Below, piece by piece: positions 13,409 through 19,395 of a stretch of 20,000 bases of DNA. Origin of the DNA: an uncultured virus (IMG/VR IMGVR_UViG_3300042356_001097) (taxonomy: Duplodnaviria; Heunggongvirae; Uroviricota; Caudoviricetes); IMG/VR virus record IMGVR_UViG_3300042356_001097. One strand, 5' to 3'. A model generated the notes under the pieces. The model was not told the DNA's origin and made no database searches. It saw nothing but the letters and a program-made list of their open reading frames with translations. The translations under genes were made by a program, and so were the position numbers. How positions within the stretch are numbered: the stretch's first letter is position 1; each line of letters begins with the position of its first letter.

Positions 13409-15343
13409 TTAAGAAGAAATGTCTACTAGCTCACAATTTCCGTCTGAACTACATGCAAGCGTAGCATTAGTAGATGTGCCATCTTCTGTCTCGTAGAAAG
13501 ACAAGTCTTCCCAGCGAATATCCTTTGGCATCTTTAAAACAAGAGCATCGTATTCTTCCTTTGATACTTCTTGGTACGGAGCCTGCTTGTATGAGTGATC
13601 TGAATGCGGTAGGAATGAAATTCCAGATACCTCATCGAAATGCTTATACACCCAAGCACCGACTTCCATCCATTCATCTTCTTTTACAGAAACTGTAATT
13701 GAAGGCTTGTGCTCACACCATGCACGTTGGTAAACTAACCAAATGTTTAAGTGCTCAATAGCAGTAAGATCGTTTCTAACAATTGCACCTTCTGGTGCTT
13801 TAATTGGGAATGAAAATACGTATGTATCGTTTGGCTTCATAACATCATCTTCTACTGGAATTCCGACTTCCTTTAAAAATGTAGAGATTGGATCTCCTTT
13901 TGCTCCACGAACTGTACGAATATAATATGGAGAATGCCAAGCATGCATTCCTGAAGATACCCCAACCAATTGAGATACTGTTCCTGATGGCTTTACGCAT
14001 GTAATAGCGGCAGACTCAGGAATCCCAATCTTTTCAGCTTCATCTTTATTCTTTGCTCTTGCTGATTCTCTAAGAGTCATCAAGAAAGATTCTAGTGAAA
14101 CAAGATCTTCTTTGCCTGACATAAACTTGTGTCCAAATTGTCCAGTTAAAGAAACACCTAGCAGGCGTTCTTCTTCTGTATTGTCTTTCCAGATCTTGCG
14201 AAGATATTTAAAGTCTGTAAGCGTTGACTGCCACGTTCCAAGAATAGTTGCAAGCTCAACCTTACGTTCAATATCTTTCTTTGTATCATTTTCACGTAGT
14301 ACGACTTCTGAAAGGTTACAAAACTGGTAAGGACGTAAGATAATCTCTGAGCACGGGTTAGTTCCATAGTGTATATCTGGATCTCTTCTTCCATACTTGG
14401 CTGCTTGGGCTTGAGCTGCGGCCACATTGTATATACCTCGTTCTCCTGACTTTGAATCATATAGAGATTTCCATTCTGCAATAAATTGCTCCATGTCTGG
14501 CTTGCGTGAGTACGCAACAGAGTTATTAGACAAAGCACGTTGTGTATTGGCTTCCCACCAGTTACCTGATTTAGCCTGTGCCATCTCAATATCGTTAATG
14601 TTAGAAAGTGAAATCATTGCTGATCGACGAACTCCGCCTACAACAACTACTTCACCGATCTTGCACATAATATCGTGACATTCAATTGGCTTAAGGTTTC
14701 TTCCTGTGGCACTCTTGAACTTTGCAATTGTAAAATCAAATAGATTAATAAGTGGTTGTGGACCCGATGATCTTCCGCCCATTGTCTTAAGTCTTGCTCC
14801 TGCTGGTCTTACCTTAGAAACATCAATTGCTGGAATCTGTCCAGACCAAAGTAGCGCTAGCAACTCACGGTACGCCTTAGCCCAACCTTGCTTTGAGTCC
14901 TCCACTGTAATTACTGTAGTTGACTTTTCCAATGACTCTGGGACGGCAGGAAGTTTATTAATATACTTATACTCAACAGAGAATCCTACACCTGTACCGC
15001 ACATAAGGATATACATTGTTTCATCAAATGAACGTGGTGAATCAACTGGTAGGAAAGCACAGTTATATCCTGCTACATTGTCTCTTTCCAATGCTACTCC
15101 TGAAGTCATAACAGAACGCATTGATGGCATTACATTTCGTTCAAAGACAAACTCTTTTAATTCCGCAACAAGCTTCTCATTTGGAATATAATTATAATTC
15201 TTTTCTAAGTGGCCAAGCATGAAGTTAAAATATCTATCTACTGTTTCACCCCAAGTCTCACGACGATTATCTTCTGATATCCATCTTGCATATCTTGATA
15301 ACGCAATGAAATTTTCGTATGGGTTTGCAATAGTCTTAGACAT
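13409..15343 (-). CDS. nrdJ: Class II adenosylcobalamin-dependent ribonucleotide reductase (monomeric RTPR type)
   Basis: GYNCAF, GTGVGFS, GGVRRSA, TNPCSEI, FCNLSE, VKPSGT motifs and a C-terminal Cys pair CSSDGNC; no beta subunit gene in the window. Confidence 0.93.
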   Translation of the reverse strand: MSKTIANPYENFIALSRYARWISEDNRRETWGETVDRYFNFMLGHLEKNYNYIPNEKLVAELKEFVFERNVMPSMRSVMTSGVALERDNVAGYNCAFLPVDSPRSFDETMYILMCGTGVGFSVEYKYINKLPAVPESLEKSTTVITVEDSKQGWAKAYRELLALLWSGQIPAIDVSKVRPAGARLKTMGGRSSGPQPLINLFDFTIAKFKSATGRNLKPIECHDIMCKIGEVVVVGGVRRSAMISLSNINDIEMAQAKSGNWWEANTQRALSNNSVAYSRKPDMEQFIAEWKSLYDSKSGERGIYNVAAAQAQAAKYGRRDPDIHYGTNPCSEIILRPYQFCNLSEVVLRENDTKKDIERKVELATILGTWQSTLTDFKYLRKIWKDNTEEERLLGVSLTGQFGHKFMSGKEDLVSLESFLMTLRESARAKNKDEAEKIGIPESAAITCVKPSGTVSQLVGVSSGMHAWHSPYYIRTVRGAKGDPISTFLKEVGIPVEDDVMKPNDTYVFSFPIKAPEGAIVRNDLTAIEHLNIWLVYQRAWCEHKPSITVSVKEDEWMEVGAWVYKHFDEVSGISFLPHSDHSYKQAPYQEVSKEEYDALVLKMPKDIRWEDLSFYETEDGTSTNATLACSSDGNCELVDISS

Positions 15344-18080: not shown

Positions 18081-18088
18081 TGTTTATC

Positions 18089-18100
18089 CTAGTCGACTAG
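18089..18100. promoter_or_regulatory. Palindromic operator-like site CTAGTCGACTAG
   Basis: Perfect 12-bp palindrome between the -10 and the RBS; variants at 15502, 16674 and 17513. Confidence 0.5.
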
Positions 18101-18229
18101 TTTATACATTCTACTAAATGTTAGTAAAATATTTTTTTAGAGCTATAGATTCTATATTAGCTTTTATCTTTTTAATGATAACTTCCAGAATTTAAGCATA
18201 CAACCCCTATACCCCTTTTTGTATTTAAC

Positions 18230-18257
18230 AAAAAAAGAACCCCGAAATAGTCGGAGT
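18230..18257 (-). terminator. Intrinsic terminator
   Basis: ACTCCGA-CTATT-TCGGGGT followed by TCTTTTTTT on the - strand. Confidence 0.7.
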
Positions 18258-18390
18258 ATAAATCCGCCATTCATCGGTTGAACCTATAGTAGGCCTAGCT
18301 ATTATCTGAAAGATATTGTAGAATACAACTTCCGTCATCATCGCACTTGGAGTTTAACCCCTTGATATTATCTCCGAAAACTGTCCAAGG
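18230..18390 (-). ncRNA. Candidate structured small RNA (about 160 nt)
   Basis: Downstream of the promoter at 18396-18425; several short hairpins; ends in a terminator. Confidence 0.55.
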
Positions 18391-18395
18391 TTTAC

Positions 18396-18425
18396 AGTAT
18401 AGCATTGCGTATTTTCGTAAGTCAA
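18396..18425 (-). promoter_or_regulatory. Sigma70/SigA-type promoter
   Basis: TTGACT-18 nt (ending TGc)-TATACT. Confidence 0.7.
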
Positions 18426-18568
18426 TGGATCCAGGAAATATTTTTTCCCGCCCCCCTTTTTGAAATTTGAGAAAATGTTAATATTATTTTAATTTGTATG
18501 ATACACACCTTTAGCAATGTCCGTTTTGTCCGATAGTGCGCCCATAGGCTTATCGGGCTGAGCGTGAG

Positions 18569-18644
18569 TGTGATGCGACTCACAAAAGTTTTTTACCGAC
18601 ACGCCCGAGAAACGGGCATAAATGTCAGTCCCCTAGTGTAGAGT
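18569..18644 (+). promoter_or_regulatory. Composite early-type promoter 1 (CRP-like box, GACAC, ATGTCAG, -10)
   Basis: TGTGA-tgcgac-TCACA 18569-84; GACAC 18598; ATGTCAG-N10-TAGAGT 18622-44. Confidence 0.65.
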
Positions 18645-18678: not shown

Positions 18679-18888
18679 ATGCTCACTCAAAATACACTAG
18701 ACAAAATTGTCTATGAATACCAACACGGGGGCGTGAAGTCTAACCACCCCGAATTGACTACCTATGAGCGAAAGGCGTTGCTAAAACACTTATTCTCTCT
18801 CCCTACCTATTGCTCAAATTGCCACGGCAAGGGCGAGGTCTATGTCGGAAATGACGAGGACTTTACCATTGAGCCTTGTGTGGTATAA
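18679..18888 (+). CDS. Small early-type protein with CxxCxGxG motif
   Basis: GAAAGGAG RBS; CSNCHGKG. Confidence 0.75.
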   Translation: MLTQNTLDKIVYEYQHGGVKSNHPELTTYERKALLKHLFSLPTYCSNCHGKGEVYVGNDEDFTIEPCVV

Positions 18889-18944
18889 ATCACACACGAC
18901 ACTAGCCCCAAATGGGTCTAGATGTCAGTAGGTCGTGATAGTCT
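18879..18944 (+). promoter_or_regulatory. Composite early-type promoter 2
   Basis: TGTGG-tataaa-TCACA 18879-94; GACAC 18898; ATGTCAG-N10-TAGTCT 18922-44. Confidence 0.6.
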
Positions 18945-18970
18945 TACGACATACAAATAAATAAAGAATT

Positions 18971-19024
18971 AGAGCGTGAGCCTAGCAAATAATCCGAAAG
19001 GTGAGCCTAGCAAATAATCGCTCT
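18971..19024 (+). repeat. 19-bp direct repeat x2 inside a stem-loop (candidate 5'-UTR RNA motif)
   Basis: GTGAGCCTAGCAAATAATC at 18976 and 19001, closed by AGAGCG/CGCTCT outside and CC-GAAA-GG inside. Confidence 0.85.
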
Positions 19025-19063
19025 CAACAAAATAACCAACTAACGAAAAGGATAGAAAATAAA

Positions 19064-19213
19064 ATGACAATAACATACTCACTATGGGACGGGGCACAAT
19101 TCCTCGGTTTCTTCACCGCTACTAGCGCAGATGAAATGAATAAGACACTAACAGAACTACAAAAGGTTTCTAAAAATGTTGTAGCACATATGAGAAAGGT
19201 AGAACAAAACTAA
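19064..19213 (+). CDS. Hypothetical protein (49 aa)
   Basis: Likely true start MTITYSLW after GAAAAGGA; the GTG at 19001 lies inside the repeat. Confidence 0.75.
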   Translation: MTITYSLWDGAQFLGFFTATSADEMNKTLTELQKVSKNVVAHMRKVEQN

Positions 19214-19395
19214 TGACATACGCATACTCTTACAATACTAACTCAATAAATAAATATGAGTCAATACAATCCGATATATCGGACGCATACGCTTACCTTG
19301 ATGAGGTAGATGAGGAACAACCTCCCGTTGATGACTTTGATGATGTTGATGATGAAGAATTAGCAAAAGTATTCGCACTAAGTTGGGATAACTAA
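19213..19395 (+). CDS. Acidic hypothetical protein (60 aa)
   Basis: TAATG coupling to the upstream gene; D/E-rich C-terminal half. Confidence 0.75.
   Translation: MTYAYSYNTNSINKYESIQSDISDAYAYLDEVDEEQPPVDDFDDVDDEELAKVFALSWDN

What the first reader, a model, noticed from the sequence alone, without database searches (positions are those of the whole stretch)
18971..19024. Two-fold symmetric RNA element: identical 17-mers facing each other in one hairpin
Seen: AGAGCG-[UGAGCCUAGCAAAUAAU]-CC-GAAA-GG-[UGAGCCUAGCAAAUAAU]-CGCUCU in an unusually long (~110 nt) leader. The 6-bp outer stem and GNRA-capped inner stem place the two copies antiparallel as a symmetric internal loop, which a simple duplication would not produce. 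Inference: binding site for a homodimeric protein or ligand, a self-dimerising RNA module, or a decoy against a host defence or regulatory protein.
Basis: partly seen in the sequence, partly recalled or inferred. Interest (0 to 1): 0.7.

Follow-up and report, generated by a model that had tools for sequence, protein, structure and literature searches.

The report
Repeated-loop early RNA of lake phages
Many uncultured lake phages of actinobacteria make, at the very start of infection, a small folded RNA that carries two to ten copies of one identical internal loop, most likely to soak up or recruit a host factor that is still unknown.

Summary
Window 18971-19024 is AGAGCG, a 17-mer, CC-GAAA-GG, the same 17-mer, CGCTCT.

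It is one instance of a widespread RNA family that has no match in Rfam.

Across 145 distinct elements:
- The outer stem takes 54 complementary forms.
- The inner stem takes 28 forms.
- The two copies pair with each other through their central CUAG. G9-C6' is GC in 84, CG in 58 and UA in 3. A8-U7' is AU in 140 and CG in 5. No cell is unpaired.

So the fold is not one open symmetric loop. It is a rod with two identical asymmetric loops, UGA facing AAAUAA plus one variable base, in opposite polarity. Nested forms carry three loops and tandem forms four. One 0.5-kb stretch holds ten units in three promoter-driven stretches with no credible gene.

The element sits about 15-20 nt after an early promoter. 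The downstream gene varies, no expression platform was found, and close relatives lack the element.

Best reading (0.45): a multi-site decoy or sponge RNA for an unknown host factor. A cis-acting leader element is the main rival. Function is inferred, not shown. This scan had not noted the element before.

The parts
18923..18944 (+). Promoter-like site TGTCAG-N10-TAGTCT. It matches the PafBC-type consensus in sequence and spacing. The inferred transcription start is near 18951.
   Evidence: Regex scan of the contig. The consensus tGTCgg(N10)tA(N3)T comes from a passage of PMC8635444. 98 of 105 distinct element contexts have a promoter-like site on the same strand within 110 nt upstream. No expression data.
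18955..18970 (+). A-rich 5' box (AAAUAAAUAAAGAAUU, containing UAAAUAA) that travels with the element.
   Evidence: UAAAUAR lies within 40 nt upstream in 148 of 185 distinct contexts, against 3 of 185 in the downstream control. It is absent from the short leaders of element-free relatives.
18971..18976 (+). P1, 5' strand (AGAGCG).
   Evidence: Pairs with 19019-19024. There are 54 distinct complementary P1 stems among 145 distinct elements. The four innermost P1 pairs are 31-36 of 36 paired, with changes on both sides.
18977..18979 (+). Short strand (U1 G2 A3) of the outer internal loop.
   Evidence: Faces 19012-19018. Nested variants place UGAGCC opposite GCAAAUAA across an inserted helix of 2-7 bp.
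18982..18985 (+). Central helix, copy-1 strand (C6 U7 A8 G9). G4 (18980) may also pair with C10' (19011), with C5 bulged; this is untested because those bases never vary.
   Evidence: RNAalifold prediction. Covariation: G9-C6' is GC 84, CG 58, UA 3; A8-U7' is AU 140, CG 5; C6-G9' is CG 144, GC 1; none of 145 is unpaired.
18987..18993 (+). Long strand (A11 A12 A13 U14 A15 A16 + U17) of the inner internal loop.
   Evidence: Faces 19002-19004. Only A11 and A13 vary in the unconstrained partner copy.
18994..19001 (+). P2 cap: CC-GAAA-GG.
   Evidence: 28 distinct P2 stems of 2-8 bp among 64 distinct inner segments. GNRA loops are mostly on the short stems.
19002..19004 (+). Short strand (U1' G2' A3') of the inner internal loop.
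   Evidence: Same module as 18977-18979, in opposite polarity.
19007..19010 (+). Central helix, copy-2 strand (C6' U7' A8' G9').
19012..19018 (+). Long strand (A11'-A16' + U17') of the outer internal loop.
19019..19024 (+). P1, 3' strand (CGCTCT).
19025..19063 (+). C/A-rich unstructured spacer with a Shine-Dalgarno-like AAGGA at 19048-19052. The same kind of short leader is found at element-free early promoters.
   Evidence: No pairing with the element was found, and no terminator-like site was called between the element and the ATG at 19064; the nearest call on this strand, 19090-19106, lies inside the downstream ORF.
19064..19213 (+). First downstream ORF (49 aa, MTITYSLW...). It is not specific to the element.
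   Evidence: This family follows the element in 47 of 80 loci, and many other small genes follow it elsewhere. Homologues in relatives lack the element. Pfam gave only one below-cut-off match, Nup49_C (E 0.0015, 19.5 bits against a cut-off of 28.5); PHROGs gave none.

Best explanation
The element is a transcribed, structured RNA module of a previously uncatalogued family.

Shown by comparison: an irregular rod made of P1, an internal loop, a 4-bp central helix (CUAG pairing with CUAG between the two copies), a second internal loop and a capped P2. Each loop has UGA on one strand and AAAUAA plus one variable base on the other, next to invariant G/C bases. The two loops are identical and of opposite polarity.

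Inferred: each loop is a high-affinity site for one and the same trans-acting factor, more likely a host protein than a small molecule. The phage makes the RNA in the first moments of infection, from an early promoter, to titrate or capture that factor. It would be a decoy or sponge in the manner of multi-site sRNAs, working independently of whichever gene lies downstream.

In this window the module is embedded in the 5' leader of an early operon. In other phages the same module stands in stretches without a credible gene, with 2 to 4 loops per RNA and up to 10 units in half a kilobase.
For: Structure:
- Covariation score 0.342 against 0.078 in shuffles (0 of 500 reach it) and at most 0.087 in slid controls.
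- 54 P1 forms and 28 P2 forms.
- Central-helix compensatory changes with 0 of 145 unpaired.
- Independent RNAalifold prediction of that helix.
- Nested variants split a unit exactly at the helix.

Sequence-specific recognition:
- The unconstrained partner unit is identical in 110 of 118 loci.
- In a sample not seeded by the motif (covariance-model hits in RNR-anchored loci), all 22 full units of 11 elements are canonical.
- No G9 or C10 variant exists with the common cap in all of IMG/VR.

Trans action and titration:
- Module number is variable and can be high. 25 of 145 elements are nested, and 36 of 120 loci hold 4 or more units.
- L464 has 10 units in three consecutive promoter-driven stretches in which only mechanical ORFs run, across promoters and units.
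- In L072, L273 and L275 no start codon lies between the element and the next promoter, read by eye only (no ORF listing was run on them). The first L077 element ends in a U7 run.

Not tied to a gene:
- Many unrelated small ORFs follow it.
- The start codon found lies 26-68 nt beyond copy 2 in most loci, and 106-167 nt in five.

Accessory character:
- Found in 11 of 39 loci of phages with 84-97% identical RNR.
- Absent from a 98-kb relative that has about 15 early promoters.

Early and sense-oriented: 98 of 105 contexts have a promoter-like site upstream on the same strand.
Against: - No partner is identified and no expression data were seen.
- In this window and most of subfamily 1 the element lies in a 5' leader, as a cis-regulator would.
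- The stretches that look gene-free may read through into the next gene. Clear terminators are rare: only L077 has a U-run.
- The collection scans were seeded with exact words, so the breadth of variation is under-sampled.
- No copy was found in 185,579 species genomes except 4 small MAG contigs of mixed taxonomy. No host RNA that the element might mimic is known, and host genomes could not be searched with the model.
Confidence: 0.45

Rival explanations
1. Cis-acting leader element. A protein, or the transcribing RNA polymerase itself, binds the loops on the nascent early transcript and changes its fate: stability, translation of the operon, or read-through of terminators as with the put RNAs of phage HK022 (recalled).
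For: - The element starts about 15-20 nt after the inferred start. The -10 box to U1 distance is 29-34 nt in 69 of 98 contexts.
- In most subfamily-1 loci an ORF with a ribosome site follows 26-68 nt after the element.
- One to a few elements occur per genome, all in one locus.
Against: - No expression platform was found. No terminator-like site was called between the element and the ATG, and the cap sequence that could pair with the SD is not conserved.
- The downstream genes are unrelated.
- Several instances have no ORF before the next promoter.
- Neighbouring early promoters manage with short leaders, and close relatives lack the element.
- Copy number up to 10 is hard to explain for a cis signal.
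Confidence: 0.25
2. Array of small-molecule aptamers. Each loop binds a nucleotide-like ligand, either to sense it or to mop it up.
For: - Near-absolute conservation of about ten loop bases with freely varying stems is the pattern of aptamer cores.
- Identical sites are repeated.
- In 38 of 145 elements the junction has the sequence signature 5'-X-U/A-N-X-3' followed by G. The paper links this UA_handle with G-clamp to recognition of an intercalating nucleotide or ligand in T-loop-like motifs, including the AMP aptamer (passages of PMC2615604; junction counts).
Against: - No expression platform.
- No natural RNA is known to me that acts as a small-molecule sponge (recalled).
- The signature is a sequence resemblance only, and most elements have an A.G mismatch instead of the exact X-U step.
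- Nothing was tested.
Confidence: 0.12
3. Processing or stability signal. The irregular hairpin is cut by, or blocks, a host ribonuclease, as with the RNase III sites in T7 early RNA or 5' protective hairpins (recalled).
For: It lies at the 5' end of early transcripts as a long irregular helix. RNase III is a dimer that acts on two-fold symmetric substrates (recalled).
Against: - Such sites do not need ten invariant loop bases or repetition up to ten times.
- Element-free relatives express the same genes from short leaders.
Confidence: 0.08
4. DNA-level site: two direct repeats act as an operator or iteron for a DNA-binding protein downstream of the promoter.
For: Two identical 16-17-bp direct repeats sit 25 bp apart just after a promoter.
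Against: - Flanking and capping stems keep complementarity while changing sequence and length.
- Compensatory changes occur between the two copies.
- Units are split by inserted helices.
- Orientation is fixed relative to transcription.
- G.U outnumbers A.C in P1, 4 to 1, though the numbers are small.
Confidence: 0.02
5. A mini-ORF. With a preceding G or A the unit reads GUG or AUG, then AGC CUA GCA AAU AA..., giving MSLAN... peptides.
For: Mechanical ORFs with this reading appear.
Against: - The distance between copies varies and is not kept to multiples of three, so the frame is not conserved.
- There is no ribosome site.
- Covariation is of the RNA-pairing kind.
Confidence: 0.01

Closest known systems
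Multi-site sponge sRNAs (CsrB/RsmZ type) and phage RNA decoys (pseudo-ToxI of phage TE, RNA anti-CRISPRs).
   Same: One short motif is repeated in a small, highly expressed non-coding RNA, with variable copy number. Phage versions are accessory and made early.
   Different: Here the motif is an internal loop built from two strands, not a hairpin loop or a tandem-repeat unit. Copies are nested or mirror-imaged rather than head-to-tail. No partner is known, and no toxin or Cas gene lies nearby.
Kink-turn, and the two-fold C/D plus C'/D' layout of archaeal box C/D sRNAs.
   Same: A three-base bulge (AAA) lies next to a G/C helix on one side. On the other side an A.G opposition (A15 facing G2) is possible, and the short strand reads UGA like box D. 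Two such modules lie in opposite polarity in one hairpin.
   Different: The position after the bulge is U14 facing A3, not the G.A pair that defines a standard k-turn (abstract of PMC5061560). The spacer is a 4-bp helix, not guide sequence. Actinobacteria are not known to me to have L7Ae-type proteins (recalled).
UA_handle-based motifs (UAA/GAN, UGA/gAN, T-loop-like); PMC2615604.
   Same: In the window the junction reads 5'-G-U1-G2.../...A16-U17-C-3'. That is the signature 5'XU/AN(n)X3' with a G 3' of the U, a 'G-clamp' (passages read).
   Different: This is a sequence signature only. 67 of 145 elements have an A.G mismatch between the stem and U1. The long A-rich strand has no counterpart in the published motifs that I read. 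3D structure is not testable here.
Promoter-proximal phage RNA signals (lambda nut/boxB, HK022 put) and the thrS operator. Recalled.
   Same: Small structured RNAs just after early promoters. The thrS operator offers two like modules to a homodimer.
   Different: There is no sequence or Rfam similarity. This element also occurs without a downstream gene and in arrays.
Candidate structured RNAs predicted from IMG/VR (PMC10690425).
   Same: Same data source, and the same kind of object (uncharacterised phage RNA motifs).
   Different: I could not establish whether this motif is among them. The main text does not mention it in the terms I searched. The alignment archives and one table could not be read.

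Membership tests
Any Rfam 15 family | Covariance-model match at or near the gathering score | tested here: not met
   There were 0 matches at gathering in the 20-kb window. At E up to 10 in 18850-19120 there were only CRISPR-DR55 (22.3 bits against a threshold of 41, at 19011-19049, only its first bases inside copy 2 and P1) and STnc230 (15.4 against 50). Both models are structure-free.
Kink-turn | Three-nucleotide bulge | tested here: met
   A11-A13 remain unpaired between C10 (possibly paired with G4') and U14 in the supported fold. This is read from the sequence plus the helix register. The G4-C10' pair never varies, so the register is an inference.
Kink-turn | G.A pair directly after the bulge (1b.1n), then A.G (2b.2n) | tested here: not met
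   The position after the bulge is U14, invariant in 118 of 118 partner units, facing A3. Only the second opposition, A15 facing G2, fits. Definition taken from the abstract of PMC5061560.
UA_handle / UGA-gAN type internal loop | Signature 5'-X-U / A-N(n)-X-3' with X:X a Watson-Crick pair | tested here: inconclusive
   The signature is present in the window (G-U1 ... A16-U17-C) and in 38 of 145 elements that have no extra 5' base and one extra 3' base. The others have A.G (67), G.A (8), A.A (3), AA/GA (2) or no extra base on either strand (27).
UA_handle / UGA-gAN type internal loop | U:A trans Watson-Crick/Hoogsteen pair stacked on the closing pair | not testable with these tools
   Needs a 3D structure or chemical probing.
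Riboswitch | Conserved aptamer core with variable stems | tested here: met
Riboswitch | Expression platform (terminator/antiterminator or SD-sequestering alternative pairing) coupled to the aptamer | tested here: not met
   No terminator-like site was called between the element and the ATG; the nearest call, 19090-19106, lies inside the downstream ORF. The spacer to the SD is variable and C/A-rich. The cap sequence is not conserved. Only 1 instance (L077) has P1 followed by a U-run.
Type III antitoxin RNA (ToxI-like) | Head-to-tail tandem repeats followed by a toxin gene | tested here: not met
   The copies face each other and pair. Extra copies are nested. 19 neighbouring small proteins have no match above cut-off in Pfam or PHROGs; the only listing is one below-cut-off Pfam match, Nup49_C. 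The PADLOC library was not searched.
Multi-site sponge sRNA | Several copies of one binding motif in a non-coding transcript | tested here: met
   2, 3 or 4 loops per element or tandem pair. 10 units lie in three promoter-driven stretches of L464 that hold only mechanical ORFs.
Multi-site sponge sRNA | A known partner that is titrated | not testable with these tools
Intrinsic terminator | G+C-rich hairpin followed by a U-run | tested here: not met
   One search lists none at the element. P1 is followed by CAACAAAAUAACC.

The most novel reading that the evidence does not exclude
The RNA is an immediate-early, RNA-only counter-defence. It would be an array of identical aptamer pockets that soaks up a nucleotide-derived host alarm signal, or else a defence protein that reads such a loop, before any phage protein can be made. 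If the target is a small molecule, this would be the first natural RNA sponge for a metabolite or signal rather than a riboswitch.
Probability: 0.1. Interest if true: 0.95.

Novelty: new variant of a known kind. Interest (0 to 1): 0.72.

Why it matters
These roughly 105-115-kb phages infect what appear to be abundant freshwater actinobacteria, and their early genes are almost all of unknown function.

This is a compact RNA of 54 nt in the window, with a fold fixed by covariation and ten bases that essentially never change. It is repeated up to ten times, made first, and present or absent among near-identical phages. That is the profile of a weapon aimed at one host component.

Because the RNA is tiny and its critical bases are known, the partner can be fished directly with wild-type and loop-mutant RNA. 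This makes an otherwise inaccessible phage-host interaction of uncultured organisms testable in vitro.

For RNA biology it adds a self-pairing duplicated module (copy pairs with copy through CUAG) that can be nested and concatenated. It also adds a candidate new internal-loop motif.

Tried and rejected
- **Rfam:** nothing.
- **Cultured phages:** no blastn match in 50,697 records. The covariance model found nothing in Streptomyces phage PinkiePie, the nearest cultured relative by RNR at 65.7%.
- **Bacterial genomes:** a two-unit pattern gave only 4 hits, all on small MAG contigs (1.1-9.7 kb) of mixed taxonomy. I read these as mis-binned phage DNA, so there is no host copy and no host clue.
- **Open 17 x 17 loop and 2-bp mini-hairpins (GC-CUA-GC):** rejected by the inter-copy compensatory changes.
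- **My first 6-bp register with C6 bulged:** replaced by the CUAG/CUAG register after and the CUAC/GUAG subfamily.
- **GAAA-loop/receptor self-dimer:** rejected because cap length varies from 2 to 8 bp and long caps carry non-GNRA loops.
- **RNA activator of PafBC through its WYL domains:** weakened, because a 12-nt ssRNA did not activate PafBC in vitro (passage of PMC11804915).
- **Autoregulation by the downstream protein:** rejected, because the gene varies and occurs without the element.
- **Antisense sponge:** unlikely, because half of each unit is buried in helices.
- **Variants at G9 or C10 with the common cap:** none found.
- **Weak model hits in element-free relatives (14.6 bits):** noise.
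- **Literature:** string searches for the motif returned only unrelated papers in the 15 listed of 954. A search on freshwater/actinophage/structured RNA listed nothing describing it. The supplements of PMC10690425 that hold alignments could not be read.
- **Not run:** a comparison of the whole gene content of element-positive and element-negative phages, judged too noisy with fragments; and the metagenome scan.

Full report
**Observation.** One search shows the sequence exactly as described. P1 is AGAGCG (18971-18976) with CGCTCT (19019-19024). The two identical 17-mers are at 18977-18993 and 19002-19018. The cap CC-GAAA-GG is at 18994-19001. The 17-mer occurs twice in the window even with 3 mismatches allowed, against 0.12 expected; 1 of 200 shuffles gave two. 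It occurs only there in the 62,295-base viral contig. Folding energy alone is unremarkable: -10 kcal/mol, z -0.54, and 51 of 200 shuffles fold as well. The case rests on comparison.

**Setting.**
- The window holds tail-fibre-like genes, a class II ribonucleotide reductase (13409-15343, minus strand) and a lysozyme-like gene.
- After about 0.6 kb without an ORF of 60 codons or more, a block of small plus-strand genes follows.
- The RNR is most like those of Streptomyces and Mycobacterium phages. The best match is 65.7%, and 709 Mycobacterium and 299 Streptomyces records are among 1,218 matching records. An actinobacterial host is therefore likely.
- The small-gene block is driven by sites of the form TGTCAG-N10-TAnnnT at window 18623, 18923 and 19938, and further along the contig.
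- This form equals the PafBC consensus tGTCgg(N10)tA(N3)T in sequence and spacing (passage of PMC8635444). Two earlier notes of this scan on other lake phages read such sites the same way.
- Only the 18923 site is followed by the element. Its inferred leader is about 113 nt, while the others are about 25-40 nt.

**A large family.**
118 of them hold two or more units.
- The second unit was not part of the search word and was allowed up to 4 substitutions. It is identical in 110 of 118 loci and differs only at A11 (to G, 7 loci) or A13 (to G, 1 locus).
- A second subfamily was found from a variant seen in locus L275.
- Rfam 15 has nothing. Neither do 50,697 cultured-phage records or the nearest cultured relative.
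- Among 185,579 species genomes, only 4 small MAG contigs of discordant taxonomy carry it.

**Fold.** The figures come from 145 distinct elements drawn from 129 loci, after dropping 6 artefactual unit pairs that spanned two tandem elements.
- P1 takes 54 different complementary forms of 3-9 bp.
- P2 takes 28 forms of 2-8 bp among 64 inner segments.
- On a 36-sequence alignment, 86.8% of cells pair, against 71.2% in shuffles. The covariation score is 0.342 against 0.078 (0 of 500 shuffles reach it) and at most 0.087 when partners are slid.
- The two copies are not an open loop. RNAalifold pairs C6-U7-A8-G9 of copy 1 with the same bases of copy 2.
- The collections bear this out. G9-C6' is GC in 84, CG in 58 and UA in 3. 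A8-U7' is AU in 140 and CG in 5. C6-G9' is CG in 144 and GC in 1. U7-A8' never varies. No cell is unpaired.
- Nested variants (25 of 145) carry an extra UGAGCC on the 5' side and an extra GCAAAUAA on the 3' side. These are joined to the core by a covarying helix of 2-7 bp such as UC/GA, UCU/AGA, UAU/AUA or UCUUA/UAAGA. This shows that UGAGC and GCAAAUAA face each other across a helix.
- The recurring module is thus an asymmetric internal loop, U1-G2-A3 against A11-A16 plus one variable base, beside invariant G4, C5 and C10.
- The junction with the outer helix carries no extra 5' base plus one bulged 3' base in 38 elements. It is A.G in 67, G.A in 8, A.A in 3 and AA/GA in 2, and carries no extra base on either strand in 27.
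- G4-C10' pairing with C5 bulged is plausible but untested, since these bases never vary. No G9 or C10 variant exists with the common cap.
- Caveat: the scans were seeded by exact words, so conservation there is partly by construction. The unseeded samples are the partner units and the 11 elements that model R1 found in RNR-anchored loci. All 22 full units of those 11 elements are canonical, while their P1 differs.

**RNA, sense strand, early.** 98 of 105 distinct contexts have a promoter-like site on the same strand within 110 nt upstream, most often 29-34 nt from the -10 box to U1. 12 of 105 have one in the opposite-strand control. In P1, G.U outnumbers A.C by 4 to 1, though the numbers are small. 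An A-rich box with UAAAUAR precedes the element in 148 of 185 contexts, against 3 of 185 in a downstream control. Where the same downstream gene occurs without the element, the leader is short and lacks that box. The module is therefore an insert of about 75-80 nt.

**Not a gene-specific regulator.** The first ORF after the element belongs to many unrelated small families. The commonest, MTITYSLW, is present in 47 of 80 loci. 19 such proteins have no match above cut-off in Pfam or PHROGs; the only listing is one below-cut-off Pfam match. No terminator-like site was called between the element and the ATG, and the cap is not conserved, so I see no expression platform. Reading frames through the unit are not kept, because the cap length varies.

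**Accessory.** 80 loci of phages with 84-97% identical RNR were fetched, and 39 had enough flank to be searched with the model. 11 hold the element and 28 do not, and there are no divergent hits. A 98-kb relative that is 78% complete has about 15 promoters of the same type on the early strand, all with short leaders and no element.

**Arrays.** Subfamily 2 mostly uses sigma-70-like promoters, TTGAY-N16-18-TAnnnT, in 81 of 102 loci.
- It often has two elements in a row. The first is a plain one, with no start codon seen before the next promoter; this was read by eye for L275, with no ORF listing run. The second is a nested one before the first gene.
- Seven loci have two plain elements in one transcript.
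- L464 has ten units in about 490 bases across three promoter-driven stretches, which hold only mechanical ORFs running across promoters and units.
- A complete 115-kb genome has one element. A 96%-complete genome has a tandem pair. In both, all units lie in one locus.
- 36 of 120 loci hold four or more units.

**Interpretation.**
- Shown: a real, transcribed-strand, covarying RNA fold with identical, nearly invariant internal loops; modular multiplication; early, promoter-proximal position; independence from the downstream gene; and patchy presence.
- Inferred: each loop is a binding site, and the RNA acts as a decoy or sponge for a host factor (0.45).
- Main rival: a cis-acting leader signal (0.25).
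- A small-molecule-binding array is possible (0.12). The junction in 38 of 145 elements has the UA_handle-plus-G signature, which PMC2615604 links to nucleotide or ligand recognition. This is a sequence resemblance only.
- The module looks like a kink-turn (three-base bulge, UGA strand) but fails its defining G.A pair, because U14 faces A3.
- An RNA that switches on PafBC is made unlikely by the report that ssRNA does not activate PafBC.

**Novelty.** I found the motif in no database or paper that I could search. The 2023 catalogue of more than 10,000 candidate RNAs from IMG/VR (PMC10690425) may contain it. Its alignment files could not be read, so priority as a mere candidate is open. As a kind, it is closest to multi-site sponge or decoy sRNAs, with a new motif and a new self-pairing, nestable architecture.

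Noticed in passing
window 18877-18921: Two small hairpins lie between the stop of ORF 18679-18888 and the promoter: UGUGUG...CACACA at 18877-18896 and CUAGCCCC-AAAU-GGGUCUAG at 18902-18921. A 'TCACAC...GACAC' stretch plus a hairpin precedes the early promoters of relatives too, like promoter/stem-loop cassettes that could mediate gene shuffling.
   Followed up: partly
window 18081-18622: About 0.55 kb without a convincing ORF lies between the minus-strand genes and the first early promoter at 18623. It contains several sigma-70-like and terminator-like matches on both strands.
   Followed up: no
window 19213-19395: The second gene after the element encodes a 60-aa, very acidic (D/E-rich) protein. 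Its family is present within 0.8 kb downstream in 54 of 80 element loci. No family match was found. Its composition is reminiscent of DNA-mimic anti-restriction proteins (recalled, untested).
   Followed up: partly
window 18679-18888; L007:1577-1693: Small early proteins next to the element carry CxxCxGxG-type cysteine motifs (CSNCHGKG in the window, CDECNGVG in L007). Neither has a Pfam or PHROGs hit.
   Followed up: partly
L077:1479-1563: One element has P1 (CUCCAA/UUGGAG) followed directly by GUUAUUUUUUUG. There the whole element doubles as a terminator-like hairpin of a short RNA. A second, nested element lies 250 nt downstream.
   Followed up: partly
L464 (whole, minus strand); L368, L371, L374, L400, L412, L419: In tandem pairs, the first element uses CUAG/CUAG and the second uses CUAC/GUAG in the central helix. 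This would keep the two elements from mispairing with each other.
   Followed up: partly
window 19001-19213: The mechanical GTG ORF of 70 aa starts inside copy 2 and runs in frame into the 49-aa gene. It is probably spurious, since the ATG at 19064 has the ribosome site.
   Followed up: yes
G001:C1:2587-13844 (L359): An element-free relative has about 15 TGTCAG-N10-TAnnnT sites in 11 kb, all on one strand and each 20-35 nt before a start codon. This agrees with earlier notes of this scan on PafBC-type early promoters.
   Followed up: partly
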